A DNA stretch of 64,000 nt from a virus (Duplodnaviria; Caudoviricetes): IMG/VR virus record IMGVR_UViG_3300031993_000006, positions 96,001 to 160,000 of that record. One strand, written 5' to 3'. The notes beneath the pieces are model-generated. The model had not been told where the DNA came from. It did no database searches and worked only from the letters and a program-made list of their open reading frames with translations. Positions within the stretch are counted from its first letter, which is position 1. Each line of letters begins with the position of its first letter. Of this stretch, positions 41,862 to 57,681 are shown one piece after another. The translations under genes and the position numbers were made by a program.

Positions 41862-42203
41862 TTACCGTTGCCGCTGACCCTGAGCTGATTTGGTGAGGTA
41901 ATTGCTGTAGTCGCTCAGCTTGTTCATCAGTTTCTGTTTGACTTCATCCGGGTGGTTGGACTTGATGATTACGTTACCGACACCTTCTAGGAAGGCCCGG
42001 TCGCTGAGACCGGAATGCTTGCGGAAGTCGTCGAGCTCGGCGAAACCCTGGGCTTCGGTAATTGCCTTGGTTTCGGCAGCCTTGCGCCTGCGGTATTCGT
42101 TGGCCATCAGAGTGATGCCTTCGGTAAGCTTTTTGATGGTCTCCGTGTTCTCGGGTGTTTCAAGGTCCTCGATACCGTTTATAAGAGCTTCTAAGCGTGT
42201 CAT
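41862..42203 (-). CDS. small late protein, possible internal head protein
   Basis: Minus-strand ATAAACT at 42236-42242; LEA/TEA/LEG motifs. Confidence 0.65.
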   Translation of the reverse strand: MTRLEALINGIEDLETPENTETIKKLTEGITLMANEYRRRKAAETKAITEAQGFAELDDFRKHSGLSDRAFLEGVGNVIIKSNHPDEVKQKLMNKLSDYSNYLTKSAQGQRQR

Positions 42204-42265
42204 GATAGCCTCATTGTAAATACTTGTTTGACTCTAGTTTATCATTTTGCTATAAACTGTGTGAT

Positions 42266-43945: not shown

Positions 43946-43947
43946 CT

Positions 43948-44604
43948 ATGGATATCAAGGAGAGAATGGCTAGGCAGATGCATCGGGTGAAGGTGGAGGC
44001 CGCAATTGCTGCGATGAAGACTCCGCCACCTGATTATGTGTTCAAGGAACCGCAGATGCCGAAGCCGATGTCTGAACAGCAGAAGGTGCAGGCGTTTATC
44101 GAGGACCGTACCTATGACGACATTCCGATGGAGCGGAGTAAGATTGACCCGAAGCGGGTTACATCTATGGCCGATGTTCATCGTATCGTCATATCGGAAC
44201 AGCCGAGGGAATTTGTAATTGGTCCGAAGGAACAGCTGGACCACAAGGCGCCGAACTTCCGCAATATAGGTCAGGAAGCGATAGAGGGACCGGGATACTC
44301 GGCAATCAAGGCAAATAATAGGGATGACGAGGAAGACCGGATGATTCAGATGTCCGATGGTGATAATAGCGCCCCGGCACTTCATGGAATTAAGATTGAC
44401 CTTAGCGGTAGCATCGGAAAGATGGCGGCTGCCCAGCAGGCGACCGCTCCGAGTGAACCACCCCCTCCGCCCCCGCAGTCTCAGCCGAAAGCGGCTCAGC
44501 CCAACGTAGGTACGAATGTCCCTCCAGGTACCATTGAAATGACCGATATGCAGCGGCAGATGCTTGCTGCGATGCGCGCACAGAGGGGCGCGAAGGTTTT
44601 GTAA
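43948..44604 (+). CDS. Pro/Gln-rich hypothetical protein
   Basis: In operon with SD; low complexity. Confidence 0.7.
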   Translation: MDIKERMARQMHRVKVEAAIAAMKTPPPDYVFKEPQMPKPMSEQQKVQAFIEDRTYDDIPMERSKIDPKRVTSMADVHRIVISEQPREFVIGPKEQLDHKAPNFRNIGQEAIEGPGYSAIKANNRDDEEDRMIQMSDGDNSAPALHGIKIDLSGSIGKMAAAQQATAPSEPPPPPPQSQPKAAQPNVGTNVPPGTIEMTDMQRQMLAAMRAQRGAKVL

Positions 44605-44625
44605 TTAACTAAAGGAGAATGCATT

Positions 44626-45330
44626 ATGAGCATGTCAATTCAGGAAAGAATGGCTCTGCAGGCGAGACTATCCGTAGCTTCGCATCGTCAGCCCATTCCG
44701 ACGCCACCCAAGGCAGCAGCGCCGGCATCCAGTGCCGTAGAGCGTATGGCAAAGCAGGCTGCTGTCGCCGCACAGAACAAGGCTTCAGCAAATTCACTTC
44801 CTCCTCCACCGGAACCGAAGTCCGCGCCGTCGATGAGCGCCGCCGAACGCATTCAGCGCCAGGCAATTACGGCTGCCGCACAGAAGGGCTTTAACGGAAA
44901 GGCCGAGGTGAACGCTCAGGTAATCGACTACTGGCACAAGCGCTACGCCGACTTCCAGAAGAATGTTACCGAAAAGCTCGCACTCGACCCACTCTACTTC
45001 GAGAAATTCGATGCAATTACCGGGCTGCCTCTTGATGGTTCCGGTGCGGAGACCTCGGAAACGAAGGAAGGCGCCCCGGTTGAATCTGAAGCGCCTGTAG
45101 TGGGTGTTGCTACGGCCGAAGGCGAAGTCGCAATCACTGCGCCGGCATCTGAACCGGTCAAGGATATGCCGTTCCAGGCTACCCCGGTGATTAAGCCGAA
45201 GCGCGTAGCGAGTCGTAAGAAGAAGCCTGCCACCAAGCCGATTGACCCTGAAAACGATGGAGTCGAGGAACCGGTGACAAGCAATCCGTTCGGTGTTACC
45301 GCAAGTGGAGAATCTGTAGGAATCCAGTAA
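44626..45330 (+). CDS. Ala/Pro-rich hypothetical protein
   Basis: SD AAGGAG; low complexity. Confidence 0.7.
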   Translation: MSMSIQERMALQARLSVASHRQPIPTPPKAAAPASSAVERMAKQAAVAAQNKASANSLPPPPEPKSAPSMSAAERIQRQAITAAAQKGFNGKAEVNAQVIDYWHKRYADFQKNVTEKLALDPLYFEKFDAITGLPLDGSGAETSETKEGAPVESEAPVVGVATAEGEVAITAPASEPVKDMPFQATPVIKPKRVASRKKKPATKPIDPENDGVEEPVTSNPFGVTASGESVGIQ

Positions 45331-46222
45331 TGGCTTCCCAGATGGAATCCAGTATGTTTCGGCTGCTGGCCTTCGGGCTGGCAGCCTTTTTCGTAGTTGC
45401 CTTTGGGGTTGCTTTCTTGGCCGGGTCTTCGCACCTTGCATGTTCTCCCTCGGGTTCCGCTGGAGTATTCTTGGGTGTTTCCTTTGGTTTTTCGGTGCAG
45501 GCATCGGCGATGCTCTTCATTGACAGGGATAGCGGCCAGTCGAACTTGTCTTTTCGTACATTGCTGTGGAAGAATACGCCGTTGAAATTCAGTGCGGTAC
45601 TTGCGTCGTCGAATGGTTCATCGTCCTTGACGAAATCGAGTCTGATTGAGTGCTTTGCCGCGAGGTACTTTACGAGGGAAGCTGTGGCGGCAATCTGGAT
45701 TGGACTCATCAGAGCGTAGTGCTTGTTCCCACGGTACTCGTGTTCCTCGTAGAACTCGGTTTCCTTTGCCGTGCAGTATACGCTTCCGTAGGCGTCGTAG
45801 AGCTTGCTGTTCTTCATGGTGAGTGGGCCATAGTTGGAAATTTCGATTCCGATTGACTGCTTGGAGAGGGCGGTGTTCCCCCCGATGGTTCCCGAGCCGA
45901 GATGATAGCTCCAGTTGTTGTCCGGGAAAAGCTCGTAGATGCGCCCTGTACGGTCGACTACATAGGATACCGATACATGGTTGCCCGGCTTGGATAGCGC
46001 CTCGATGTCGGACATGATGTACCCGACCGTGAAATGGAGGCAGATACTTTTCTTTGTCGTGTCGGCTGGATAGTAGTAGGTTGGGTCTGTTGGACGGATT
46101 GATGTGATTTCGAACCCGCCGGGGATGGTTACCGTTCCGACTCTCTTGAATGTACGCCCGCTCGGAAGCTTCAATGTATCCGCAAAACGGTCTTCTTTTT
46201 CGGAAATTTTGGATGGATGCAT
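45296..46222 (-). CDS. N-acetylmuramoyl-L-alanine amidase (Amidase_2), probable endolysin
   Basis: ICLHFT, VSYVVDRTG, WSYHLG, SIGIEI, FHSNVRKDKFD; minus-strand late promoter 46252-46258. Confidence 0.88.
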   Translation of the reverse strand: MHPSKISEKEDRFADTLKLPSGRTFKRVGTVTIPGGFEITSIRPTDPTYYYPADTTKKSICLHFTVGYIMSDIEALSKPGNHVSVSYVVDRTGRIYELFPDNNWSYHLGSGTIGGNTALSKQSIGIEISNYGPLTMKNSKLYDAYGSVYCTAKETEFYEEHEYRGNKHYALMSPIQIAATASLVKYLAAKHSIRLDFVKDDEPFDDASTALNFNGVFFHSNVRKDKFDWPLSLSMKSIADACTEKPKETPKNTPAEPEGEHARCEDPAKKATPKATTKKAASPKASSRNILDSIWEAITGFLQILHLR

Positions 46223-46293
46223 ACTGAAGTCTCCTTTTTTCTGCTGGTCGAAGTTTATGCAACGATAAACTTGCGGAAAATAACAGTGAAGGT

Positions 46294-46848
46294 ATGATTA
46301 TGGCAGTCGATATGGCTCAGGCTCAGGCTCTTAAGTTTAGGGAGATTCTCAGGGAAAATATCGAAAAACTCGTTGGTGATAGCGAGACGACCGATGCGAT
46401 TATGAACATGTGTGAAACGGTTAGTAAAATGGCTGCGGTGAACGAGAAAAGCCGGGCTATCTTGATGGAAGCTGCCGACCAGAAGGGCAATAGTTACGAT
46501 ACGCTCAAGGATATGGCGAAGTGGCTCCTTAACGAAGGTAATGACCTTAATGTGTTTCACTGGAATGTGGATAAGAATTCTAAGCATGAATTGCTTGACG
46601 AAGCTTACAAACTTTGCCGGGATAGCGGCGATAAGCTAGCCGAGGCTTACATAGCGATTATGGACAAGCCGACTGACACGCCGCCTAGCGATGAAGAGGT
46701 GCTGAATCGTCTGAAGACTTTGCAGAGCCGTATGCAGGAGGCTGTATCCAAGAATCCGAAGTTCAGCGAAGGTGTCAAGAATTACTTTGCTGATTTCGAC
46801 GAGAAGATTACGACCATTATCTACAAGTGGTCACGGTTCAGCGCCTAA
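46294..46848 (+). CDS. Dps/ferritin-like domain protein
   Basis: FHWNV..KHELLDEAY..DKLAE resembles the Dps ferroxidase pattern; late promoter 46265-46271. Confidence 0.6.
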   Translation: MIMAVDMAQAQALKFREILRENIEKLVGDSETTDAIMNMCETVSKMAAVNEKSRAILMEAADQKGNSYDTLKDMAKWLLNEGNDLNVFHWNVDKNSKHELLDEAYKLCRDSGDKLAEAYIAIMDKPTDTPPSDEEVLNRLKTLQSRMQEAVSKNPKFSEGVKNYFADFDEKITTIIYKWSRFSA

Positions 46849-46897
46849 TCGGCATAATTGCTATATTTGTATTACTGTCACTATACGGAGGTTCACA

Positions 46898-47488
46898 ATG
46901 GATATGGCCAAGATGCTTGCCGAGGAAAGGGAAGATATGCTTAAGCATAAGTATATCGAATCGGAGAAGGCTGGTCGCGACCTGGGTGAGCCGTCTATGG
47001 TGAAGTGGGCGAAGGAATTCGGGGAAGCGTGGCGTTTTAACTACAACAAGACGCATATGATGGACCTCGGCGATGGCACTAAGCCCGTATATTTCGGTAT
47101 TTTTCTGGACCAGAAGTCCAGGGAATATCTCCAGAATGAACTCTTTGAATATGTTCCGTCCGGGTGGCGCATGTTGTGCCACCATTGCACGATAGCATTT
47201 GGCAGCCCGGAGAAACACCCTGATGTACTCGACTTCCTTGCATTGAAACTGGCAAAGAATGTCGAACTGGAAATAGTATCCCTTGGCATCTCTGATGATG
47301 CGATTGCGGTAGGGGTTGCCGGTGATTTCAAGTCTATAAACCCGATACCGCATATCACTGTCGGTATACCGTTCGATGGAAAGCCGAAAAACTCGAATTT
47401 CATTAAGGAATGGAAAGAATTTAAAATGGACCGGAAGGTAGTCGGTGTAGTCGATGCTTACCCGAGTCACTTTGGGTGGAAACACTAG
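46898..47488 (+). CDS. 2H phosphoesterase with a small N-terminal domain
   Basis: Two HxT motifs (HHCTI, PHITV); ATG 46898 with GGAGG SD after GCTATATTTG (46860-46869). Confidence 0.7.
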   Translation: MDMAKMLAEEREDMLKHKYIESEKAGRDLGEPSMVKWAKEFGEAWRFNYNKTHMMDLGDGTKPVYFGIFLDQKSREYLQNELFEYVPSGWRMLCHHCTIAFGSPEKHPDVLDFLALKLAKNVELEIVSLGISDDAIAVGVAGDFKSINPIPHITVGIPFDGKPKNSNFIKEWKEFKMDRKVVGVVDAYPSHFGWKH

Positions 47489-47489
47489 T

Positions 47490-48488
47490 ATGGATAATCA
47501 GTTACAGGATATCATGCCGCAGGACGAGAACTTGTCCAACGCGCTTATGGCGGGATACAATGCCGCTAGACAGATGAATTTCAAGGATACATCTAAAAAG
47601 GTGCTTAATTTCACCCACAACGACCTGGATGGCGTCGTTGCCGGAATCGTGGTCAAGAATGTGTTCCCTGATGTCGATGTCTATCCGGTTAACTACAAGG
47701 GTAGCCCGATGTATGATACTGCGGTGGCTCGTATTGCGCAGACCGGCGCAAACTATGACTTTATCCTGTTTACCGACTGGTGTCCGGGCGTGAACGATAC
47801 GGAAATGTATGACGCGCTTCATCAGGCGCGTGTGCCGTTCCTCGTGATTGACCATCACCAGAAAGCGGAGAAGCATCCGGACGACCCGCAGGGTACATTT
47901 GTGATTGATACTTCGAAGTGCGGCGCATATAACTGCTATGAGTTTTTCGGGGATATCAAGGACTTGTCCTATCTTGATACCTTATGCGATGTTACTAACG
48001 ACCACGATATGTGGATTCGTAAGAAAGTTCCGCTTTCCGACCATCTGAATTCTTTGCTGTACCTTATCGGTACCGAGGAATTTGACCGTAAGTACCGTCA
48101 CGGTATGGATGGCTACAATTTGCTTCCTGACGATGCGGAATTAATGCGTAACCACGATGCTGAGGTGGATGCCTATCTCAATTCGTTGAAATTGACTCCG
48201 CTTCCGGGTAATGGCGTATATACTACGGTCGGCAAGTTTAATAGCGAGATTGTTCTCCGCTTGGAAGATAAGTACGACTGGATTGTTCTTAGGTCCGGGC
48301 AGCAGGATGTTCCGGGAATGATAAAACTATCCTTCCGCGCACGGAGAAAGGACCTTAATCTCGGCAAGATTTTGGATAGCCTTGGACGAGGCGGTGGCGG
48401 ACATCCGGGTGCTGCTGGTCAGGTTCTTCCTGAGGCGGATGTGGCTCCATTCATCATGGAAGTCGCAAAGATAATTACTTCAATGTAA
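47490..48488 (+). CDS. DHH/DHHA1 family phosphoesterase
   Basis: THNDLDG, FTD, IDHH, SFR, GGGHPGAAG. Confidence 0.9.
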   Translation: MDNQLQDIMPQDENLSNALMAGYNAARQMNFKDTSKKVLNFTHNDLDGVVAGIVVKNVFPDVDVYPVNYKGSPMYDTAVARIAQTGANYDFILFTDWCPGVNDTEMYDALHQARVPFLVIDHHQKAEKHPDDPQGTFVIDTSKCGAYNCYEFFGDIKDLSYLDTLCDVTNDHDMWIRKKVPLSDHLNSLLYLIGTEEFDRKYRHGMDGYNLLPDDAELMRNHDAEVDAYLNSLKLTPLPGNGVYTTVGKFNSEIVLRLEDKYDWIVLRSGQQDVPGMIKLSFRARRKDLNLGKILDSLGRGGGGHPGAAGQVLPEADVAPFIMEVAKIITSM

Positions 48489-48894
48489 TGGCGATTGCGA
48501 TAACAAAAAGCAAAAGTAGACATACGGTGAACTTTTCACCGAAACTGAACCCGACCGTATCGGGTTCAGTTTTGTTTTTAGGAGGATTGATTGAACCGTT
48601 GTTGGAAATAAAATCTACACAACATATGTTGTATATTTCTGGAATGTTGTCAATCGGCCCGTTGGTAGGTGCGAAAAAGTCGAATGGGGCGTACCCGGGG
48701 TAACTCGTGAGACGGAATATTACATAACCGTCGTTGAATTGGTATTCCCGGATTGAATACTTGATAAACAGCGATTCAGCATCAAATTCGCGGTTTACCG
48801 TGCTGATTAATTTGGCGTATTGTTTGAGGAAATCTTCGGTGTCGATATTTCGGTCGCCGTGGTATGTTACTTTTATTGTATCTAGGTTTAGCAT
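48475..48894 (-). CDS. hypothetical protein with C-terminal transmembrane helix
   Basis: Hydrophobic tail FTVCLLLLFVIAIAITLK; GCTATATTTG 4 nt before ATG. Confidence 0.65.
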   Translation of the reverse strand: MLNLDTIKVTYHGDRNIDTEDFLKQYAKLISTVNREFDAESLFIKYSIREYQFNDGYVIFRLTSYPGYAPFDFFAPTNGPIDNIPEIYNICCVDFISNNGSINPPKNKTEPDTVGFSFGEKFTVCLLLLFVIAIAITLK

Positions 48895-48959
48895 AAAACA
48901 AATATAGCAAAGAAATGCAGCCGGTTGGCTGCCTTTGCTGATTGTTGCGATTAGAATAT

Positions 48960-49376
48960 TTAGTTTGCCGGTGTAGTGGCCGGTATGGCGACCGGCTTGG
49001 CAAAGGAGTTTCGTGTCCAGGTAACACGGAGCTCTTCATAGGCGAATCCCTTCCTGGCTTCCTTGTTTTTGAGGATGATTTGTCCGCGGAACAGGATGCT
49101 GGAACGGGTTTCCGGCGGCAAGCTCATCAGCTCATTGAATGCGCCCAAAAGCTGATTCCATTTCTTGTACATCGGATTGTGCTTAAAGCGACTCATTCTT
49201 TGCACGATGCGGTAGAAGTTTCCCTTGTAGTTCGGGTGGTCGTCGTCCTGCGGGACGACAGATGGCGTTTCTTCGTCGAGGTTGGCGGTTTCTTCAGCGA
49301 TAGCCTGCACTTCGGCGGCGTCCTTTTCCTGGGCGGCCGTTACTTCTTGCATATTTTCTTCGGAAGTCATGTTCAT
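48960..49376 (-). CDS. hypothetical protein
   Basis: ATG 49376 lies downstream of the promoter motif at ~49410-49419. Confidence 0.65.
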   Translation of the reverse strand: MNMTSEENMQEVTAAQEKDAAEVQAIAEETANLDEETPSVVPQDDDHPNYKGNFYRIVQRMSRFKHNPMYKKWNQLLGAFNELMSLPPETRSSILFRGQIILKNKEARKGFAYEELRVTWTRNSFAKPVAIPATTPAN

Positions 49377-49655
49377 AGAAAGTTTCCTGTGGTTAGTTTT
49401 GCTATAACACAAATATAGCAAAATTACCATCGGTCGTAGCAGGGATGTTTCTCCACGGGAGTGATTGCAAGCTTGTCGAGTTCATTGAGGTTGTTGTACC
49501 AGTTTTCCTGATACTGTTTCATCGGGTTACTAACAGCTAACCTAAAATCTACCTAAGCTTACTCAAATATAGCAAAATCTACGAGAAATATGTGTATTTT
49601 TAGGTTGCAAATCGGCATAAAATTTTGTATATTGTTATAAACTTGATGTATAGAG

Positions 49656-49755
49656 GTTCGATGAATTAGTGGCTTTCTTCATTGAACGACAATAAGAGAC
49701 CATTTATGATGGCTCGTTTGATGCTGAAAGCCACAAAAAGTATCGAACGAGCCAT
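49656..49755 (+). ncRNA. structured RNA leader: two hairpins with complementary loops
   Basis: 10-bp and 17-bp stems; loops GTGGCTTTC (49669-49677) and GAAAGCCAC (49726-49734) are exact complements. Confidence 0.65.
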
Positions 49756-49766
49756 TTCTGTATTGT

Positions 49767-51500
49767 ATGAGCAAGCACTGTTGGACATTGAAGGATAGGT
49801 ACGAATCGCAGTTCTCCGCTGCGTTCTATCCTATCATGCTGTCCGACACTAAGCGAGCCGAAATTATCCATAGGGCAGAAGAAATCCGTGCGGTAAGGAA
49901 CGACATATCGGAAGTGTTCTTCTCGGATATGCTCGGCTTCCAGGACATGAGCAAGTTCGAGGCGTTCAACTTCTTCAATCCTACGTTCAACACCCGGCTT
50001 TCCAGCCATTACTTGAAGAAGGCTATCGAAGAAGTATGGAAAGCATACCAGCTAAGGTTTGGTGCAATCCGCAAGAAGATTGAGTTTGTAAAAGTAGAAA
50101 AGCTTGTGCCGTCATTCTATAAGATAAATTCTCATGGACATAAGAAGGGCGAGCTGAAATCTATCGAAGTACATACCAAGAAGACCGAACTAACGAAAGT
50201 ATTGACCTGGCTTGCACGATATGGAAAGGACGAATCCGTTTACTGGCTAGAATCCGTTATCCCTACTGTTGTAGAAACCAAGCAGAAATTCTACCGAACC
50301 ATTCTTGAAAAGATACACAAGTTCGGTTTCGACCGCCTTATGCGATTGGCCTTATCCCGTAGAGAAGCTGTATATGCGAAATATATCGAACGTGGAAAGA
50401 TTACCTTTGATTCGCTCACTTTCAGCGGGCGAAGCCGTATCACGCGTCCTATAGTGGATGCCCGTAGGAACGAGACCGGAAAGTTCGACTATTTCATCGA
50501 GATTTCCTGGGACTGGTCCAGCCAGGCATACCATGGACCTAGTGAGCATACACTGTGCATCCCGTTCAAGTACAACAAGGCATACCACAAGTCACTGCAA
50601 AGATACTGCAATGGTGGAGACACTTCCTATACAATCGTAATCCGAGGAAAGGACATCCACGTAGTCCTGGCAAGGGACGGCTACCGCTACAAGAGCGATG
50701 CAGAAATTACCGAGGAGAATACGGTCGGCATAGATGTCAATTCCAAGCATAACATGTTCGCATTGAGCACCGGAGAGTTCATTCCCCATGACGAGAAGCT
50801 GATTGCCGAACTTGAAGACGAGCTGTTTAAAATCGACAACAAGCAGAAGAACTACGATGCCCGGTTCAAGGAATACGAGGAACATGATGCCTTCAAGATT
50901 TCCAGTAAGGACAAGAAGCGGATAGAAGCCATTACCTTGAAGCTGAACGAATCCAACAAGCGTAGAATTGCCACCATGTGCAAGGACCTTGCCGACCGTG
51001 GATTCAAGCACATTGTAATGGAAAATCTTACAGGATTTCAAGGAAGCAGACTAAATGCCGATGACAAGAAAGGTTTCAACTTAGGACGGTTGCATCTACG
51101 AATTGGACTGTCATCGTTAAAGGATGACGTAGAACATATATCGGCACATTATGGACTGGGCTTCTCGCTCATACAGCCAGAGTATACCTCGAAGATGTGT
51201 CCGGTATGCGGCGGTATAGACGACCGGAACCGCCAGACTCAAGAAGAATTTAAGTGTGTGGACTGCTTGCATGCCGACAATGCAGACTGCAATAGTTCAA
51301 TAAACATCAAGTTCCGCCTTACCTCGACCGTGTTAAGAGGGTACCTACTTGAAGTAGGGGATAGCGGATATAGGTGCTTCCAGCCAAAGAGCTTGTTCGG
51401 GTGGCAAGTAAGGAAGTGCCTAGAAAAGTGCCGTTGCGATGGTCTGTTCAAACGGTCCATAGGAAATCACGAAAAACTTACGATGAGTAAGTTTGAGTAG
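49767..51500 (+). CDS. tnpB: large (577 aa) TnpB/Cas12f-like RuvC nuclease
   Basis: VGIDVN, IVMENL, YTSKMCPVCG..FKCVDC..NADCNSSINI; RuvC D/E/D intact. Confidence 0.88.
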   Translation: MSKHCWTLKDRYESQFSAAFYPIMLSDTKRAEIIHRAEEIRAVRNDISEVFFSDMLGFQDMSKFEAFNFFNPTFNTRLSSHYLKKAIEEVWKAYQLRFGAIRKKIEFVKVEKLVPSFYKINSHGHKKGELKSIEVHTKKTELTKVLTWLARYGKDESVYWLESVIPTVVETKQKFYRTILEKIHKFGFDRLMRLALSRREAVYAKYIERGKITFDSLTFSGRSRITRPIVDARRNETGKFDYFIEISWDWSSQAYHGPSEHTLCIPFKYNKAYHKSLQRYCNGGDTSYTIVIRGKDIHVVLARDGYRYKSDAEITEENTVGIDVNSKHNMFALSTGEFIPHDEKLIAELEDELFKIDNKQKNYDARFKEYEEHDAFKISSKDKKRIEAITLKLNESNKRRIATMCKDLADRGFKHIVMENLTGFQGSRLNADDKKGFNLGRLHLRIGLSSLKDDVEHISAHYGLGFSLIQPEYTSKMCPVCGGIDDRNRQTQEEFKCVDCLHADNADCNSSINIKFRLTSTVLRGYLLEVGDSGYRCFQPKSLFGWQVRKCLEKCRCDGLFKRSIGNHEKLTMSKFE

Positions 51501-51683
51501 ATTTCAGTCAACGGTTGAACTTGAGGTCGTGCATACGCTGGAAGCTAGCGTGTAGGTCGCCCGCTAGGTCGCCGGCCGGTTTCACCGCCTGGAACCACAT
51601 CAGGGTCTGGTTCTTGGGACGGGCTTCCTGTTCTACGGTAGCGTCATTGTAGGTAGGGTCGATGTCGAGCTTGCGGGAGTTTA

Positions 51684-52349
51684 TCAAAGTTCCAACAATC
51701 TGTCGAGTTCTTCCTTGGTCGCTCGCTTGGCTCTGGTGATTGCCGGACGGGTAAGCATCTCTTGTCCCGGTACGGCAAGCGGGTCGGGGTCCTTCTTTTT
51801 GGCTAGATGGGGGAAGTTGGCATCTTTGAATATGTCAATCGGGGTTTTCGGGTCGTCCACATCGGAAAGGTCAGGTTCATCCGGTTGTTCTTGCTTTTCC
51901 TCTTCAGCATGGCGTTTAGCTTCGGCAGCCGCCTGCTCCTGTTCTTTTTTCCAACGGTCGTGGTGCTCACAGTTGACTGATGAGTTCGAAATGTGGTCCA
52001 TTTCGGATGTGTCGTCGAGGTTGCTGAAATTCCATTTGAACCTGATGTCGGCAGCCGTCAGCTTATATTTATGGATTAGGCCGGGAGAAACCTGCCGACG
52101 AAGGAATTCGGTCAGTCGAGGGGATATCGGGCGTGGGTTTTTGGGTGGCTGGATTTTCAGGACTGCGAGATAGAATTCGTCGCATATGTCCTCGTCACCG
52201 CCTAGTTCTCGCAATATTTCTCGGGCGATGCCCGTTATTTGCATTTCGCCCATTGCGGTTGCCGGGATACGATGTTTTTTCGCGTTGATTTTCAGAAGGG
52301 TGCTTATGAACGCCTGATTGTTGATTATGAGTCTATCGATATCTGCCAT
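51684..52349 (-). CDS. hypothetical protein
   Basis: GCTATATTTG 5 nt before ATG. Confidence 0.7.
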   Translation of the reverse strand: MADIDRLIINNQAFISTLLKINAKKHRIPATAMGEMQITGIAREILRELGGDEDICDEFYLAVLKIQPPKNPRPISPRLTEFLRRQVSPGLIHKYKLTAADIRFKWNFSNLDDTSEMDHISNSSVNCEHHDRWKKEQEQAAAEAKRHAEEEKQEQPDEPDLSDVDDPKTPIDIFKDANFPHLAKKKDPDPLAVPGQEMLTRPAITRAKRATKEELDRLLEL

Positions 52350-52402
52350 AATCTCAAATATAGCAAAGAAATACCATAAACTATGAATACCGAGGTGTTC
52401 AA

Positions 52403-53164
52403 ATGAATGTGCATTTTATAACTACTGATGATATGGCCCGCTACATCATATCCCGCATGGGTGGGCAGGTCAATGAGATTGAGATGGTCGTCGAGGAGCA
52501 TCACGGTCTTGGCCATGTGTATATGGCTATCAATGATACTGCCGACTACTTCTACCGCTACTGCTTCGACGAGGCGGCTTATGTGGACTATATGCTCATC
52601 CGGTTGCAGCCGGGTGTCATCGAGTACCATGTCCCTGACGAGGTGATGAATGTGGTCGAGCTTATGCCTAGTTACGGCAATACCTTTAGCCCGATGATGG
52701 CTTGGGATGTCGGGCCGGGTGAATCGCTAATTGGTGTCGGTGGTGCCGGTATGGGCGGCCTTGGACAGTTTGACCTAGTGACTATGGCCGGCGCAATGCG
52801 GTATCTTGCAGATGTCCAGAAGTTCGCTGGTACCCAGTATAACATCAAGCTGCACCCGGTCGACCATATCTTGCGCGTATTCCCGACCCCGAAGACCTGT
52901 CGTAATGCGCTTGCTTGCGTATATACGAAGGCAAAAAAATCTGAACTTTACAATAATGTCATTTTCCGCGATATGGCGGTGGCCCGTGCGCAGATTCAGC
53001 TTGGCGATATCCTGAAGAGGGACGACTACGCAATTCCGGGTGGCGGCAAGATTAACGGTTCGCTGATTTATACCGATGCGATGACCCGGTGGAAGGACCT
53101 ATTCGACCTGATGAAGCAGGAAGCTCCGGGTCCGCTGATGATGACTGACTTGAGCGGTCTCTAA
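52403..53164 (+). CDS. gp13: neck protein, T4 gp13-like
   Basis: YIISRMGG.VNEIE, AQIQLGDILKR..IPGGGKING; late promoter 52376-52382. Confidence 0.82.
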   Translation: MNVHFITTDDMARYIISRMGGQVNEIEMVVEEHHGLGHVYMAINDTADYFYRYCFDEAAYVDYMLIRLQPGVIEYHVPDEVMNVVELMPSYGNTFSPMMAWDVGPGESLIGVGGAGMGGLGQFDLVTMAGAMRYLADVQKFAGTQYNIKLHPVDHILRVFPTPKTCRNALACVYTKAKKSELYNNVIFRDMAVARAQIQLGDILKRDDYAIPGGGKINGSLIYTDAMTRWKDLFDLMKQEAPGPLMMTDLSGL

Positions 53165-53171
53165 AATACAA

Positions 53172-53195
53172 GAGCCTCGGGAAATCCCGGGGCTC
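53172..53195. terminator. hairpin between convergent genes
   Basis: GAGCCTCGGG-aaat-CCCGGGGCTC. Confidence 0.65.
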
Positions 53196-53225
53196 CTGGC
53201 GTTTAATGTGCTCATTTGGAGCAGT

Positions 53226-53909
53226 CTATTTGAATTTCAGTGATTCCGCACACTGGGTAACTGCATTGACGCTTGCTTTGCTGTAGCGGATGGCTTGCAT
53301 GGCACAGCCAACTTCGCGCAACTTCTTACGGATACCTACATATACGAGGAAGGTCGCCTTGGCGTCGGATAGTGCGGTATGGGCCTTGTCGTTGGTTACG
53401 CCGAGGATTTCACACACTGTGTTTAACCTGCGGTCCGGCCAATTATCGGGCTCAAGTCCACTAGCCTCATAAAGCAGGTCGAGTAGTTGAATGGTGTCAT
53501 CAACTCTGAAGCTATCCAGTTGGTGACGGTAGAAGTCCTTCATGTATATTTGAATGAACTTCTTGTCAAATTTGAAGTTGTGAGCGATGAGTGTAGTCCA
53601 GAACCCTTTGTTGGCGTGTTCTGCGAGCATAGCGGTCATTTTTTCTTCGACTTCTGATACAAGGAGTCCAGTTGTTTCTAGTTCTTCTAGATTGAGGTGG
53701 TTAATATCTTCGACTGCATGTTTGTCGATTGTTTTGTCGGCGAATTGGCTCGGCTTGAAGTTCCATTCCCCTTCAGCCAGAGTTTCGTACTGCAGTGTTT
53801 CGGCGTCAAGTTCATAAATACCCATGCCGATTTGGAGGATGGGATTTTTACTAGCGTAAAGACCTGCAGTTTCGGTATCTATTGAGATGATGATTCGTTT
53901 GTCGTTCAT
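53226..53909 (-). CDS. DEDDh 3'-5' exonuclease (DnaQ-like)
   Basis: IDTETAG, AHNFKFD, HTALSD. Confidence 0.92.
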   Translation of the reverse strand: MNDKRIIISIDTETAGLYASKNPILQIGMGIYELDAETLQYETLAEGEWNFKPSQFADKTIDKHAVEDINHLNLEELETTGLLVSEVEEKMTAMLAEHANKGFWTTLIAHNFKFDKKFIQIYMKDFYRHQLDSFRVDDTIQLLDLLYEASGLEPDNWPDRRLNTVCEILGVTNDKAHTALSDAKATFLVYVGIRKKLREVGCAMQAIRYSKASVNAVTQCAESLKFK

Positions 53910-53927
53910 ACGACAAATATAGCAAAA

Positions 53928-54944
53928 TTACCACTTGCCGATGAGGTCGCCGCACGGGAAGTATCCCGGGTCGTTCGTGACATCCTTGACACACTGGTCG
54001 ACTTCAGCCGGTGTAAACAGGACATCCTGCTTGAGTTGCAGCAGGGTTTCTTTGTCGAGTGCGAGCGGGTTCCCCGTGCTGGTCGGGTTAGTAGCGACGG
54101 CGGAACCGTCTGTAGCGTTCCCGAGGGATGTCGAACCGAACAGGTTGTCGATGAAGTGCTGCTGGAGCGGGTTGTCCTTGACTTCCTGCGCGACATTCTG
54201 CCCGTCGTCTGTTGCGGTGTCGATGTATGCCTTCCACCAGTACTTGTGCCACATGTACTCGTACTCCGGCCAGTTGTCGGTTATCGAGTTTACCGAGAAG
54301 AGAATATTGTTGTACTCCGGCTTGAGAAGGTCGCCTGCCTTGGGGAATATCTGCTGTGCGGTATACCCGTGGTATACGAATGTGTCGTAGCCGCGCTGCC
54401 AATATTCATCGTTGTGAAGCCCGACATCGCAAAGGGGCTTGATTCCGGCATCCATAAGGCTACGGTAGTTGCGCTCGAGGAACAGGCCCATGTGGATGGC
54501 GACTTCTGTCTTGTCGGTGAACTGTATGCCGAAGCGCTTGTAGAATTCGTTCTGAGGGTTGAAGGTAATTTGGAGCGGCATCTCGAACACACGGTCAATC
54601 GTACGGGAGTTGTCTTCCTTGGTAAGCGGGTTGGCCGAGGTGTCGAATGTCGTGGTGTAGTACAGGAAGGATGTGCCGTGGTTCTCCATGAAGTCACGGG
54701 TGAGGTCCTTGTACTTCTGCTGTGCGTGGAAAGCGTTCTGCCTGCGGTAGAAGCTGCCGTAACCGTGCCGGGTGTGTGACTCGAAGTCTGGCTTGGAATA
54801 ATGTGAGCGCGGACTGCGCTGGACGAACCCGGCAGACTTGTCTTCCCAGAAGGGCTTCGATACATTGGCCTGTACACTGAACTCCGGCACTAGGACATGA
54901 CGGGCGCGCACATAGCCTTCAATGATAAGCGGTATACTTGGCAA
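53928..54944 (-). CDS. gp14: neck/head-completion protein, T4 gp14-like
   Basis: FYKRFGIQFTD and PKAGDLL; minus-strand late promoter 54963-54969. Confidence 0.65.
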   Translation of the reverse strand: MPSIPLIIEGYVRARHVLVPEFSVQANVSKPFWEDKSAGFVQRSPRSHYSKPDFESHTRHGYGSFYRRQNAFHAQQKYKDLTRDFMENHGTSFLYYTTTFDTSANPLTKEDNSRTIDRVFEMPLQITFNPQNEFYKRFGIQFTDKTEVAIHMGLFLERNYRSLMDAGIKPLCDVGLHNDEYWQRGYDTFVYHGYTAQQIFPKAGDLLKPEYNNILFSVNSITDNWPEYEYMWHKYWWKAYIDTATDDGQNVAQEVKDNPLQQHFIDNLFGSTSLGNATDGSAVATNPTSTGNPLALDKETLLQLKQDVLFTPAEVDQCVKDVTNDPGYFPCGDLIGKW

Positions 54945-54962
54945 CTTGTTACCTCGGGATAC

Positions 54963-55000
54963 AGTTTATATCCTGTGGGGGTTCCCGGGGTATATAAACT
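54963..55000. promoter_or_regulatory. divergent pair of late promoters (AGTTTAT..ATAAACT)
   Basis: Lies between the gp14-like and gp6-like genes; the same arrangement occurs at 42236-42258 and 46252-46271. Confidence 0.75.
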
Positions 55001-55026
55001 ACCGATAATTGAAGAGGAATGGGAAA

Positions 55027-57681
55027 ATGGCTTCAACATCAGTCGCAAGAAAGTATACGAACATATCGTTTGATGACATAAGGGCTCATCTCGTCGAAAT
55101 TGTGAAGGCCAAGGAAGGCGCCCTTGCCGATATGGGGGACAGCTCGTTTGGCAAGACAATGATTGAGCTTTTCTCCGGTTTTGGCGACCTTGCGGCTAAC
55201 TGGACAGAGGCTGCCTTTGGTAATATATTCCTTGAGACGGCGACAGCCAAGCCGGCCGCTTATTCGGGTGCTCGCTCGATTGGTTACAGTGTCCGCCGCC
55301 CGGTGCCGGCAAAGTGCTCAATCGGCATCCAGGTGACATCAATCAGGGAACACGGGACACTCAAGGTATTTATCCCGAAGGGTACCGTCTTTACGATGTC
55401 CGGTGCGACGCTCACTTCGATGGACGATATGGAGTTCATATACGACTATGATTCCGATGCCGACCAGACGGGTCTTATGGAACTTTCCCGTGGCCTCAAT
55501 GTGCTTGCCGAAGGTCAGTTCCGTACTGAAGTTCTCATTTCGAATGGCCGACAGAATCAGGAATTCCACATCAATGATGCCTCTTTCTCTGATTATTTTG
55601 GTGACAGCGACCCGAACTTCTCCGATGATGGCAATATGGCTCACCGTCCGGCCTGCTTCACGCGGGTTACCTCCGATGCGACCCTGATGGACAACATCGA
55701 CCCGGATATCGTTATCGACGACAAGTTGTACTGGCGCATTTCCCGTCGCGGATTGGAGGACCCTGCTCTTGACACGAAGTCGACTACTGGGCTTGAGTTC
55801 TCTACCGAGCAGGGTAACTACAGTACGAACTATACGGCTCTCATCGAGACCGCGAATGACGGTTCTGTTGCGATTAGGTTCGGCGATGGTCTTAAGGCAG
55901 CCATTCCGTTTGGCAATATCGAGGTCACCTACTTCTCTACTAACGGTGAATCGGGTAATATGCTTGGTGTGTTCGGTACGGCGCTCTCGACGACTGGCGG
56001 GAACATTACCATTACCACAAAGGATGGGCAGGAGACCGATGTCACCCTGAACGACCTCAATATCTGCTTGGTGACCGACATTAGGGGCGGTCTGGATATA
56101 GAATCGATAGAGTCTATCCGTAACAATGCGTCTGTTATTTTCAATACGCTTGACAGGTTGGTTACTCGTGAGGCATACAAGGTATTCCTCCGGCGCTATG
56201 CCGATGTGAAGTATGCGTCTGCCTATGGCGAAGATGTTCTTAACACGAAGCTCCTCAATGGGGGTATCAATGTGAAGTACATGAACCAGGTGCGCTTTAC
56301 GGCGCTAAAGGACCTGTACCGTAAGAAGGATGGCAAGTATTACCCGACGAACGAGGACGAGTATATGTTGGCTGGGTATAAGGTCAACGGGTTGATGTAC
56401 AACTGGCTGTATGATTTCCAGGACCCGAACAAGGAGAGCGTTGTTGAGGATGGTGCTGCAATAATTGACGGCATCCGGGGAGAACTTGATGCTACCGTGG
56501 AGAAAGCTTTGGTAGCTGCCGGAATAGAAACTCCGAGCGATGAACAGATTGCCGCGATTTCGGCTGACTTGATGAAGCTTGTGAACAAGCATGTCCCGAA
56601 AATCAAGTTGGATGATTCAGTATTCTCCGCGTTCCTTACTCCGATGGATTTCGTGGTGGAAGGCTCCGAACTCCACAATATTATGCTGGCACTGAACAGG
56701 CGCGGGATGCTTACGGTCGGCGATGGTTTCCACAACTATGTGTACCCGTCCGTCCACAATATGGAAATCAAGATGGATGTCGTGCTTTACAAGGGTAACA
56801 ACTTTACTGACATCCGCGAGCGCATCAAGAATGTGGTGTACCGGTACCTCAAGGAGAATACCGAGTTCTGCACCCCGATTTTCCGCTCGAAGATTGCATC
56901 CCTTGTCCACAGCATGAAGGAAGTTGCCGGTGTCGATGTGTATTTCCAGCCGGCGGATAGCGCTTTCGCCGAGCTTGACCTTGAGAACTATCCGTGGATG
57001 GGCGATTCGACCTCCACATTCTGCGACCCGGGCACTACGGCGTTTACCGGGATGAGCTTTACCTTGCAGGGAAGCTACCGGGGTGGTCCGCGTGTTTCCG
57101 ATGTATTCACTATGCGTGACCAGGGTAAGATTCAGTCCCAGATTGCCGAATACTACGCCCAATATGTCAAGCCGTATGTCGGTACCCGGACTACAGACGG
57201 GTGCGGCAATGTCAAGGTCGAGAACTCGATTACCGACAAGCTTATTGACCGCTTTGTTGCCTATATTTGGGAGCGCGTGATGCAGGAAATCTATGCTCCT
57301 ATCACGGAAGCGCTCGATAACGAGTACAAGTCTGGGGGTACGGATACATTGCGGTACAAGGCTATTCGAGATTCAATCAAGACTTGGGAAATGGGCAAGG
57401 ATTCACTGAAGTTCAAGAACATTTCCGGGATTACCGATATGGTCGAAATCAACGGGGTGAGGCTGTTCGACTATATGCGCTATGGTATGGACTACATCAA
57501 GCTGGTGCGCCGCGTACTTGGAGCCAAGTCTACCGAAACCCTTATCAATAGCGATACGGGCAATATCACCGAATATTCCAATGACAACGAGATTGTTCAG
57601 TTCACTATCCCGAATGAACTTATCAATCTTACTGTCGCGCAGACATCTTCACTTCTTACGGGAACAGGCAGTAGCGTATAA
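55027..57681 (+). CDS. gp6: baseplate wedge protein, T4 gp6-like
   Basis: SFDDIRAHL, FLETA, ARSIGY, IRFGDG, STNGESGN, ESIESIR, RLVTREAY. Confidence 0.88.
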   Translation: MASTSVARKYTNISFDDIRAHLVEIVKAKEGALADMGDSSFGKTMIELFSGFGDLAANWTEAAFGNIFLETATAKPAAYSGARSIGYSVRRPVPAKCSIGIQVTSIREHGTLKVFIPKGTVFTMSGATLTSMDDMEFIYDYDSDADQTGLMELSRGLNVLAEGQFRTEVLISNGRQNQEFHINDASFSDYFGDSDPNFSDDGNMAHRPACFTRVTSDATLMDNIDPDIVIDDKLYWRISRRGLEDPALDTKSTTGLEFSTEQGNYSTNYTALIETANDGSVAIRFGDGLKAAIPFGNIEVTYFSTNGESGNMLGVFGTALSTTGGNITITTKDGQETDVTLNDLNICLVTDIRGGLDIESIESIRNNASVIFNTLDRLVTREAYKVFLRRYADVKYASAYGEDVLNTKLLNGGINVKYMNQVRFTALKDLYRKKDGKYYPTNEDEYMLAGYKVNGLMYNWLYDFQDPNKESVVEDGAAIIDGIRGELDATVEKALVAAGIETPSDEQIAAISADLMKLVNKHVPKIKLDDSVFSAFLTPMDFVVEGSELHNIMLALNRRGMLTVGDGFHNYVYPSVHNMEIKMDVVLYKGNNFTDIRERIKNVVYRYLKENTEFCTPIFRSKIASLVHSMKEVAGVDVYFQPADSAFAELDLENYPWMGDSTSTFCDPGTTAFTGMSFTLQGSYRGGPRVSDVFTMRDQGKIQSQIAEYYAQYVKPYVGTRTTDGCGNVKVENSITDKLIDRFVAYIWERVMQEIYAPITEALDNEYKSGGTDTLRYKAIRDSIKTWEMGKDSLKFKNISGITDMVEINGVRLFDYMRYGMDYIKLVRRVLGAKSTETLINSDTGNITEYSNDNEIVQFTIPNELINLTVAQTSSLLTGTGSSV

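What the first reader, a model, noticed from the sequence alone, without database searches (positions are those of the whole stretch)
49600..51514. Large TnpB with a kissing-loop RNA upstream and a phage late promoter
Seen: TTGCAA-17-TATATT and ATAAACT (49637) precede a 100-nt element with two long stems whose loops are 9-nt perfect complements, ending 11 nt before the ATG. The ORF runs to within 14 nt of RE, which has only a short hairpin (AAACTTAC/GTAAGTTT). The inter-stem AGACCAT could pair with ATGGTCT near the 3' end. Known: TnpB scaffolds normally lie at the 3' end, and typical TnpB is ~400 aa. Inference: a split tracr-like plus guide RNA architecture, or an autoregulatory leader, in a 577-aa TnpB/Cas12f-like protein.
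Basis: partly seen in the sequence, partly recalled or inferred. Interest (0 to 1): 0.85.

Follow-up and report, generated by a model that had tools for sequence, protein, structure and literature searches.

The report
Kissing-loop leader RNA before phage tnpB
A transposase-less IS607-type element in a 260-kb phage carries a large TnpB nuclease gene behind a new, strongly conserved 5' leader RNA whose two hairpin loops pair with each other; the guide RNA itself sits in the usual place at the 3' end.

Summary
The 100-nt element at 49656-49755 has two hairpins whose loops share a perfect 9-nt complement. In 46 distinct relatives that loop-loop helix is 99.5% paired. Eight of its nine pairs show changes on both sides, and no G-U pair occurs in it. 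G-U pairs in the stems put the structure on the + strand, as RNA.

The split tracr-like reading is not supported. The last 203 nt of the element (51313-51515) form a covarying multi-helix scaffold that closes on the right end, which is the normal omega-RNA position. The proposed AGACCAT/ATGGTCT pairing does not covary.

The leader is a separate module. It occurs only in copies that lack the transposase TnpA. It also precedes a second TnpB in the same phage, a canonical 438-aa one only 28% identical over its C-terminal part. Relatives that keep an IS607-type TnpA have no leader.

Hairpin 2 sequesters a conserved AUG/GUG that has a purine tract upstream, and it ends 11 nt before the tnpB start codon. 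My best reading is a cis-acting gate on tnpB translation or expression, driven from a phage late-type promoter.

The protein belongs to a ~550-600-aa TnpB clade with an intact catalytic triad. Its nearest solved fold is CasLambda.

Rfam and the literature searched hold no match. The scan noted this same stretch before in an overlapping window, not on other DNA.

The parts
49524..49565 (+). Left end of the element. It starts GGGTTAC and carries AAATCTAC-type repeats. The inner 24 nt (49542-49565) form an imperfect inverted repeat with 51484-51507.
   Evidence: Homology among independent insertions begins here. The inverted repeat is 83% complementary over 24 nt.
49605..49633 (+). Sigma-70-like hexamers TTGCAA-17-TATATT.
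   Evidence: Consensus scan, 9 of 12 matches. Conserved as TTGAAA/TTGACA plus TATATT/TACATT in relatives.
49636..49642 (+). TATAAAC(TT), the phage's own promoter-like motif, probably late-type.
   Evidence: The genome has 38 sites, most of them 15-45 nt before an ORF start. Two of those ORFs encode a tail sheath stabilizer and a baseplate wedge subunit. The motif is kept in L009, in type-2 elements and in TnpA-bearing L007.
49656..49687 (+). Leader hairpin 1: a 10-bp stem and a 12-nt loop. The loop has 3 free nt followed by 9 nt that pair with loop 2.
   Evidence: 97% of cells paired, and all 10 pairs show compensatory change in the wide alignment.
49669..49677 (+). Loop 1 strand of the loop-loop helix (GTGGCTTTC).
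   Evidence: Pairs with 49726-49734. 99.5% of cells paired, and 8 of 9 pairs show double-sided change.
49688..49708 (+). Linker between the hairpins. It holds the purine tract AAGAGA (49694-49699), AGACCAT (49697-49703) and the first ATG (49706-49708).
   Evidence: Read from the sequence. The purine tract lies 8-13 nt before the start codon at the base of hairpin 2 in relatives. The AGACCAT long-range pairing is not supported.
49709..49755 (+). Leader hairpin 2: a 17-bp stem and a 13-nt loop (9 paired nt plus 4 free). Its 5' base is an ATG. It ends 11 nt before the tnpB ATG and is followed by a U-rich tail.
   Evidence: 97% of cells paired, and 14 of 17 pairs show compensatory change. ATG or GTG stands at the stem base in 46 of 46 TnpB-linked leaders.
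49726..49734 (+). Loop 2 strand of the loop-loop helix (GAAAGCCAC).
49767..51500 (+). tnpB, 577 aa. RuvC triad D323/E419/D507 and a CxxC...CxxC zinc ribbon.
51313..51515 (+). Predicted omega-RNA scaffold overprinted on the last ~60 codons. It has nine helices, including a closing helix 51430-51436 with 51509-51515.
   Evidence: RNAalifold on 25 relatives gives 59 pairs, 16 of them with compensatory changes. The highest-depth RNA contigs lie here, but that signal is confounded.
51484..51515 (+). Right end. It holds the inverted-repeat arm and the terminal ...TCAACGGT.
   Evidence: Homology among independent insertions ends at 51515. Inverted repeat.
51516..51535 (+). Flank that would be read as the guide. 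This is inferred, not shown.
   Evidence: By analogy with TnpB omega-RNAs (PMC8612924, PMC11061315). The flank differs in every independent insertion.

Best explanation
The stretch 49524-51515 is a non-autonomous IS607-family element that lacks the tnpA transposase gene. It sits in a jumbo phage and carries one gene, a 577-aa TnpB-superfamily RNA-guided nuclease. The guide RNA scaffold lies in the normal place, the last 203 nt of the element.

The 5' element is a separate module. It is the ~125-nt leader of the tnpB mRNA, transcribed from the phage's own TATAAAC promoter. It folds into two hairpins locked together by a 9-bp loop-loop helix.

I infer that this compact fold gates tnpB expression in cis. 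Hairpin 2 buries a conserved AUG/GUG that has a purine-rich, Shine-Dalgarno-like tract upstream. It ends 11 nt before the SD-less tnpB start, inside the space a ribosome would occupy. The leader thereby replaces the translational coupling to an upstream ORF that tnpB has in TnpA-bearing relatives.

Shown here: the fold, its strand, its distribution and the 3' scaffold. Inferred: that the fold controls translation or mRNA fate.
For: **The fold is real**
- Two hairpins plus the loop-loop helix have 97.7% of cells paired.
- 32 of 36 pairs show compensatory change.
- Every measure exceeds all 500 shuffles and all slid controls.
- The one imperfect case (L018/L071, a U-U mismatch) is a one-step intermediate between two loop types.

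**It is + strand RNA**
- The stems hold 112 G-U pairs against 3 A-C pairs.

**The geometry is fixed across lineages**
- Loop 1 is always 3 free plus 9 paired nt, and loop 2 is 9 paired plus 4 free.

**It is a module, not part of the guide RNA**
- A covariance model finds exactly two copies in the 260-kb genome. Both stand directly before a tnpB, and the two proteins are 28% identical over the C-terminal region that aligns.
- A 47%-identical relative has a leader with entirely different loops, UUGGUCGGC/GCCGACCAA.
- Relatives with an IS607-type TnpA upstream lack the leader, and tnpB there abuts or overlaps the upstream ORF. TnpA domains (MerR HTH plus Resolvase) were checked for L007, L008, L295 and L299; L022, L036, L051, L057, L061, L064 and L070 show upstream coding sequence like L008's; L174 was judged by eye.

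**The 3' scaffold is in the normal place**.

**Hints toward translation control**
- ATG or GTG stands at the 5' base of hairpin 2 in 46 of 46 TnpB-linked leaders.
- An AAGAG-like tract lies 8-13 nt upstream of it.
- The annotated tnpB ATG has no purine tract.

**Promoter**
- Other genes with TATAAAC have 15-45-nt leaders, while the two tnpB genes have 112-131 nt.
Against: - No experiment or raw-read RNA end data exist. The RNA contigs cannot show starts, ends or relative levels.
- The upstream ORF that starts in hairpin 2 varies from 2 to 55 codons. It is in frame with tnpB in 16 of 46 leaders, so no single coupling mechanism fits all.
- The four variable loop positions are the most variable in the whole leader, at 1.38 bits against 0.62 for the unpaired linker. 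They change by transversions and never through G-U. A purely structural cis role does not predict that pattern. It suggests selection on loop identity, which fits a trans or self-recognition role better.
- By my own geometric estimate (no 3D modelling was run), a 14-22-nt linker is tight for an intramolecular stack of hairpin 1, the kissing helix and hairpin 2, unless the complex bends.
Confidence: 0.5

Rival explanations
1. The loops are specificity determinants that act between molecules. The other is a processed or terminated short leader RNA that pairs with loop 2 of tnpB mRNAs of the same loop type. Either would give type-specific cross-regulation among co-resident elements.
For: - The paired loop positions are hypervariable yet always complementary (1.38 bits against 0.62 for the linker).
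- There are at least 12 discrete loop types.
- The loop-loop helix shows no G-U pairs and no one-sided changes.
- By geometric reasoning alone (nothing modelled), a symmetric dimer would give two stacks of equal length without strain.
- The two leaders in this genome have loops that would mismatch at 3 of 9 positions.
Against: - Two type-1 copies on one contig (L039 and L069) share the same loops.
- No third site matching the loops exists in the elements.
- No data show dimerisation or processing.
- The number of independent loop changes is small, and recombination between leaders is evident: L010 has the window's leader but a 78%-identical protein.
Confidence: 0.2
2. The leader is a transcription attenuator. 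Hairpin 2 plus the U-rich tail terminates most transcripts before tnpB, giving a short RNA and low read-through.
For: - Every lineage has a U-rich tract right after hairpin 2: UUUCUGUAUU, UUUCCUAUAU and UUUCCUUUUUU.
- A weak, non-TnpB match in a provirus (L294) has hairpin 2 followed by U8.
Against: - The terminator scan finds none. That scan allows loops of 3-8 nt only, and loop 2 has 13 nt.
- The U tract in this window is interrupted.
- RNA contigs bridge the leader into the ORF (records 7 and 22).
- No alternative anti-terminator pairing is conserved. The extended pairing 49666-49689 with 49714-49737 is absent in L003.
Confidence: 0.12
3. The leader is a second RNA component of the nuclease, a tracr-like or accessory scaffold. 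It would join the 3' RNA through AGACCAT/ATGGTCT or would bind TnpB directly.
For: - The 7-nt complement exists in the window.
- At least 6 of 7 positions can pair in 19 of 25 relatives.
- Some apparent compensations occur (L012, L017, L046).
Against: - The pairing is hardly above shuffled partners (6.12 against 5.99). It is lost in L032 and L040, while the local 3' hairpin stays compensated at 6.72 of 7.
- The type-2 leader linker lacks the motif.
- TnpA-bearing relatives of the same protein have no leader.
- The same leader serves two TnpBs that are 28% identical over the C-terminal region that aligns.
- A complete scaffold lies at the 3' end.
Confidence: 0.08
4. The structure acts at the DNA level, as a cruciform or recombinase site at the left end, or it is a self-cleaving ribozyme.
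For: - It is an inverted-repeat-rich segment inside a transposon end region.
- Hammerhead-type ribozymes can have loop-loop pseudoknots (from my own knowledge).
Against: - 112 G-U pairs against 3 A-C pairs argues for RNA of one strand.
- L009 and L013 keep the leader but have lost the outer left end.
- IS607 serine recombinases act on double-stranded DNA.
- No Rfam family, ribozymes included, matches at E <= 1.
- A closing third helix is not supported, at 67% of cells paired.
Confidence: 0.05

Closest known systems
IS607-family TnpB elements with a right-end guide RNA (ISFba1 TnpB-reRNA, RAGATH-18; PMC11061315)
   Same: - Relatives carry the MerR-HTH plus serine-recombinase TnpA directly upstream of tnpB.
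- The ends carry GG and subterminal repeats.
- A structured RNA scaffold overlaps the 3' end of tnpB and runs to the right end.
   Different: - The protein has 577 aa rather than about 390.
- It scores below the NCBIfam TnpB cut-offs.
- The 3' RNA matches no Rfam family, RAGATH-18 included.
- This copy lacks TnpA and has a structured 5' leader that has not been described for IS607.
CasLambda, the phage-encoded type V effector (PDB 8dc2, 9izr)
   Same: - It is the best structural match: Z 20.5 over 479 residues, TM 0.59 by query.
- It is phage-borne.
- It has an enlarged recognition lobe compared with TnpB or Cas12f.
   Different: - Sequence identity is only about 15%.
- No CRISPR array lies within about 6 kb.
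- The gene sits between transposon ends, with TnpA in relatives.
- It is about 150-170 aa shorter.
IscB/IsrB omega-RNA (HEARO), which lies upstream of its ORF
   Same: A structured RNA lies directly 5' of the gene for a transposon-encoded RNA-guided nuclease.
   Different: - HEARO is the guide scaffold itself and carries the guide at its 5' end.
- Here the RNA starts inside the element, so it cannot read a flank.
- Here a separate scaffold exists at the 3' end.
- No Rfam match was found.
phi29-family packaging RNA and the P1/P7 c4 antisense RNA (from my own knowledge, not tested here)
   Same: Short loop sequences covary between lineages while staying complementary, which gives lineage-specific RNA-RNA recognition.
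   Different: - There is no sequence or fold relation to either.
- Intermolecular pairing is not shown here.
- The genetic context differs.
Translational control of selfish nuclease genes in T4 (the I-TevI hairpin with a late promoter) and the 5' UTR hairpin of IS200 tnpA (from my own knowledge)
   Same: A selfish nuclease or transposase gene is held in check by 5' RNA structure. In T4 it is expressed from a late promoter.
   Different: - In T4 the late transcript starts inside the hairpin and so escapes repression.
- Here the promoter lies upstream of both hairpins.
- The loop-loop lock has no counterpart in either system.

Membership tests
TnpB / Cas12 superfamily (RuvC nuclease with zinc ribbon) | Split RuvC domain with a D-E-D triad and a CxxC...CxxC target-nucleic-acid-binding (TNB) domain. 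| tested here: met
   - Pfam PF07282 scores 47.2 bits against a cut-off of 26.3.
- D323, E419, D507, C478, C481 and C497 are invariant, and C500 is nearly invariant (at least 90%), in 60 homologs.
- Fold Z is 14.5-20.5 against TnpB, Cas12f and CasLambda.
TnpB / Cas12 superfamily (RuvC nuclease with zinc ribbon) | A curated whole-protein TnpB model is matched above its cut-off. | tested here: not met
   NCBIfam guided_TnpB scores 85.7 bits against a cut-off of 100. IS607_TnpB scores 18.9 against 350. Only residues 280-520 align, so the N-terminal half is divergent.
IS607 family transposon | A serine-recombinase TnpA with an N-terminal MerR-like HTH lies directly upstream of tnpB. | tested here: met
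   Met in relatives: L007, L008, L295 and L299. Absent from this copy, which is therefore non-autonomous.
IS607 family transposon | Defined ends with GG at the crossover, subterminal repeats and no long target duplication. | tested here: inconclusive
   The ends were mapped by comparing independent insertions: GGGTT... at 49524 and ...AACGGT at 51515. AAATCTAC-type repeats lie in both ends. The GG rule is recalled from the literature and was not verified here. No empty site was found.
TnpB omega-RNA (right-end guide RNA) | A conserved structured RNA overlaps the 3' end of tnpB, ends at the right end, and is followed by a variable flank. | tested here: met
   59 predicted pairs, 16 of them compensatory, with a closing helix onto the last 7 nt of the element. 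The flanks differ between insertions. RNA-guided cleavage itself is not testable here.
CasLambda / type V CRISPR effector | An adjacent CRISPR array supplies the crRNAs. | tested here: not met
   No tandem or interspaced direct repeats were found in 42000-59000.
Any Rfam RNA family, including RAGATH-18, the IS605-orfB motifs, HEARO and the ribozymes | A covariance-model match. | tested here: not met
   cmscan of 48500-52500 at E <= 1 gave 0 matches.

The most novel reading that the evidence does not exclude
The hypervariable but always complementary loops form a self-recognition code. Leader RNAs would pair loop-to-loop between molecules, either as closed dimers or as a short leader RNA acting on tnpB mRNAs of the same type. 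Each TnpB element in a phage population would then sense or limit only its own kind, in the manner of an incompatibility or immunity system for RNA-guided nucleases.
Probability: 0.2. Interest if true: 0.8.

Novelty: new variant of a known kind. Interest (0 to 1): 0.62.

Why it matters
TnpB elements are the ancestors of Cas12. Until now, the RNA described for them has been the 3' guide RNA (plus introns in IStrons).

This finding adds three things:
- **A second RNA module.** It is sharply defined, tied to the loss of the transposase, and shared by two unrelated TnpB lineages in ruminant-gut jumbo phages. Its covariation is as clear as any curated RNA family. It gives a testable handle on how phages, or the elements themselves, throttle a genome-cutting enzyme.
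- **A possible evolutionary link.** The protein clade is transposon-borne, phage-resident and closest in fold to CasLambda. It is a candidate link between TnpB and a phage type V effector.
- **A practical case for RNA tools.** The leader is a compact natural example of a programmable 9-bp kissing interaction.

Tried and rejected
- **Rfam.** A scan of 48500-52500 at E <= 1 gave nothing.
- **Phage database.** Megablast of the region found no match.
- **Third closing helix.** GUAUAGA with UCUGUAU has only 67% of cells paired and no convincing covariation.
- **Long-range linker pairing.** Linker with the 3' hairpin is not above shuffled partners in any useful way.
- **Third site for the loops.** I looked inside each element for a further match to the loop sequences and found none.
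- **Origin of the leader.** It shows no significant similarity to the inner sequence of TnpA-bearing relatives; the best E-value is 0.27.
- **Pattern scans of viral contigs.** The leader start and the loop-1 motif gave mostly chance hits. The model confirmed only known loci, one further type-1 locus (L140), and one weak provirus hit, L179/L294. That hit had been selected by my own pattern, so it is weak evidence.
- **Distant homologs.** L298, L301 and L302 (about 33-46% identity) have no leader. P0126 returned no DNA.
- **Species-representative genome collection.** It holds only one relative, a contig in a water-buffalo 'Clostridia' MAG, and that one has the leader.
- **Metatranscriptome contigs (bovine gut, one study).** They cover relatives of the whole element. 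Depth is 10-30 times higher over 51312-51514. That region is the most conserved among copies, so collapse of many copies explains it as well as an abundant 3' RNA does. The contigs show no ends or strands.
- **Upstream ORF.** Its frame and length vary, so I do not claim it as a conserved leader peptide.
- **Literature.** Five full-text searches found no description of a 5' leader or kissing loop for tnpB.
Full report
**What is there**

The window is part of a 260-kb virus record, G000:C1:96001-160000. The ORF at 49767-51500 (+) encodes 577 aa. It matches Pfam Cas12f1-like_TNB above the cut-off and PHROG 'transposase' families. It scores below NCBIfam's TnpB cut-offs, and only residues 280-520 align. 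In an alignment of 60 homologs at 22-90% identity, D323, E419 and D507 are invariant. So are three of the four zinc-ribbon cysteines, and the fourth is nearly invariant. The nuclease therefore looks intact.

More than 900 close homologs of about 578 aa exist, mostly on large phage contigs. About 100 clusters at 50% identity reach E < 1e-30, typically with 510-600 aa. The length is normal for this clade.

**Element ends and family**

Comparing independent insertions places the left end at 49524 (GGGTTAC...) and the right end at 51515 (...TCAACGGT). A 24-nt imperfect inverted repeat (49542-49565 with 51484-51507) and AAATCTAC-type repeats lie in both ends.

Several relatives have an ORF with a MerR-type HTH plus a Resolvase domain directly upstream of tnpB. 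These are L007 and L008, L295 at 59% identity and L299 at about 33%. That is the IS607 arrangement, so the window copy is a TnpA-less derivative. No CRISPR array lies within about 6 kb.

**The 5' element**

- Hairpin 1 is 49656-49665 paired with 49678-49687.
- Hairpin 2 is 49709-49725 paired with 49739-49755.
- Loop 1 GTGGCTTTC (49669-49677) and loop 2 GAAAGCCAC (49726-49734) are exact complements.

Across 38 distinct relatives from viral and metagenome contigs, the loop-loop helix is 99.7% paired, and 5 of 9 pairs change on both sides. A covariance model brought in more distant leaders: a 66%-identical relative, a 47%-identical relative with loops UUGGUCGGC/GCCGACCAA, and four leaders of a second TnpB type. 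That gives 46 distinct sequences with these results:
- 32 of 36 pairs show compensatory change.
- The loop-loop helix is 99.5% paired.
- 8 of its 9 pairs change on both sides.
- It holds no G-U pair and no one-sided change.
- All measures for the whole fold exceed all 500 shuffles and all slid controls.

One sequence pair (L018/L071) shows a single U-U mismatch. That mismatch is exactly a one-step intermediate between two loop types.

The stems hold 112 G-U pairs against 3 A-C pairs, so the structure belongs to + strand RNA. The geometry is constant: loop 1 is 3 free plus 9 paired nt, and loop 2 is 9 paired plus 4 free. The four variable loop positions are the most variable columns of the whole leader, at 1.38 bits against 0.62 for the unpaired linker.

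**Where the leader occurs**

The model finds exactly two copies in the phage genome. One is the window copy. The other, at G000:C1:226562-226675 (-), stands directly before a different tnpB. That gene encodes a canonical 438-aa TnpB (NCBIfam guided_TnpB 262 bits), 28% identical to P0001 over the C-terminal region that aligns. Its loops are GUAGGAUUU/AAAUCCUAC. Relatives of that gene have GUGGUAUUU/AAAUACCAC.

In both TnpB lineages, copies that keep a TnpA upstream have no leader. There, tnpB abuts or overlaps the upstream ORF. The leader is therefore a module of about 125 nt, running from TATAAACTT to the ATG. It goes with TnpA-less tnpB genes and not with one protein lineage. More distant homologs (L298, L301, L302) lack it. 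It shows no similarity to the inner sequence of TnpA-bearing relatives or to any Rfam family.

**The guide RNA**

The last 203 nt of the element (51313-51515) fold into nine helices in 25 relatives. Sixteen pairs are compensatory. A closing helix joins 51430-51436 to the last 7 nt of the element. The flank beyond it differs in each insertion. This is the usual TnpB arrangement (PMC8612924, PMC11061315).

The proposed pairing of linker AGACCAT with ATGGTCT exists in the window. Across 25 relatives, however, it scores 6.12 of 7 against 5.99 for shuffled partners. It is lost in L032 and L040, where the 3' hairpin changed and was compensated locally. The type-2 leader lacks the motif altogether. 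The split tracr-like reading is therefore not supported.

**Promoter**

TTGCAA-17-TATATT is present and conserved, but by count such sites are no more frequent than chance. TATAAAC occurs 38 times in the genome. Most sites lie 15-45 nt before an ORF start. Two of the seven downstream ORFs that I scanned encode a tail sheath stabilizer and a baseplate wedge subunit. This fits a late-type phage promoter, although the timing itself is not shown. The two tnpB genes stand out with leaders of 112-131 nt.

**How it most likely works**

What is shown is a compact, conserved RNA fold directly before the start codon, specific to tnpB genes that have lost their upstream partner ORF.

What is inferred is that it gates tnpB expression in cis. 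The hints are these:
- An ATG (42 cases) or GTG (4 cases) stands at the 5' base of hairpin 2 in all 46 TnpB-linked leaders.
- An AAGAG-like purine tract lies 8-13 nt upstream of that codon.
- The annotated tnpB ATG lies 11 nt after the hairpin and has no purine tract.

Hairpin 2 would hide the one well-equipped start site, and the loop-loop helix would lock it. The reading frame from that upstream codon runs for 2-55 codons, or is in frame with tnpB in 16 of 46 leaders. I therefore do not claim a fixed coupling mechanism.

A U-rich tail follows hairpin 2 in all lineages, which keeps an attenuator reading alive. The hypervariable, never-wobble loops are not predicted by a purely structural role. 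They keep open a reading in which the loops recognise each other between molecules.

**RNA data**

Four bovine-gut metatranscriptome runs from one study hold contigs of relatives that cover the whole element, and some bridge the leader into the ORF. Depth is highest over 51312-51514. That is also the most conserved stretch among copies, so the figure is confounded.

**The protein**

The AlphaFold2 model has a mean pLDDT of 85. Against solved structures the order of matches is:

| Match | Z | Aligned residues |
|---|---|---|
| CasLambda (8dc2) | 20.5 | 479 |
| Cas12f | about 16 | about 360-380 |
| ISFba1 IS607 TnpB | 15.3 | 359 |
| ISDra2 TnpB | 14.6 | 340 |

Foldseek gives the same order, with TM by query of 0.59 for CasLambda against 0.32-0.40 for the other three families. 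Sequence search of the PDB finds only the C-terminal 70 residues. The protein is thus a large, divergent, transposon-borne TnpB whose enlarged N-terminal half most resembles a phage type V effector. Common descent with CasLambda was not tested.

**Novelty**

I found no Rfam family and no paper describing a 5' leader or loop-loop RNA for tnpB. Other first-stage notes from an overlapping window of the same genome saw the same loop complement and the 3' scaffold. I tested both here.

Noticed in passing
window 49424-49523 and 51516-51687 (- strand): The element sits at the junction of two minus-strand genes. The joined flanks would read ...TTC AAC CGA TGA AAC..., an ATGA stop/start overlap. With the element present, the right end supplies AAC CGT TGA, so the upstream ORF keeps the same ...F N R stop. 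The downstream 32-aa ORF keeps its ATG at 49522-49520.
   Followed up: partly
window 49561-49578 versus 49407-49424: Inside the left end, this copy alone has ACTCAAATATAGCAAAAT. That is a 94% repeat of the promoter-like sequence in front of the next minus-strand gene (TATATTTG on the - strand). Relatives have AAATCTACCGAAAT there instead. It looks like an outward promoter that evolved in the transposon end to drive the gene cut off from its upstream partner.
   Followed up: partly
G000:C1:225270-226700 (- strand), locus L020 1270-2697; outside the window: A second, canonical 438-aa TnpB element lies in the same phage. It has a different left end (GGAGATGGTATCTAGT...) but the same TATAAACTT promoter and the same kissing-loop leader.
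   Followed up: yes
L008 2480-3008; also L022, L036, L057, L064: TnpA-bearing relatives carry one or two extra small ORFs between tnpA and tnpB (121 aa and 71 aa in L008). These have no Pfam match. L007 has a small ORF before tnpA.
   Followed up: no
L294 1501-1616 (provirus record G001): A weak model match (40 bits) has the same loop geometry and 8 of 9 complementary loop bases. It is followed by U8 and an unrelated small gene behind a TTGACA-17-TATAAT promoter. It may be a distant, TnpB-free relative of the motif, or it may be chance, because my own pattern search selected it.
   Followed up: partly
L301 about 230-300: A distant homolog (about 33% identity) has about five tandem copies of an 11-nt unit, AACCTATAAAA, before its gene instead of the leader.
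   Followed up: no
whole genome G000: TATAAAC(T) occurs at 38 sites, most of them 15-45 nt upstream of ORF starts. Two of those ORFs are tail genes. It is a candidate late-promoter consensus for this phage group, comparable to TATAAATA in T4.
   Followed up: partly
L010 versus window: L010 has a leader almost identical to the window's, but its TnpB is only 78% identical. Leaders therefore seem to be exchanged between elements by recombination.
   Followed up: no
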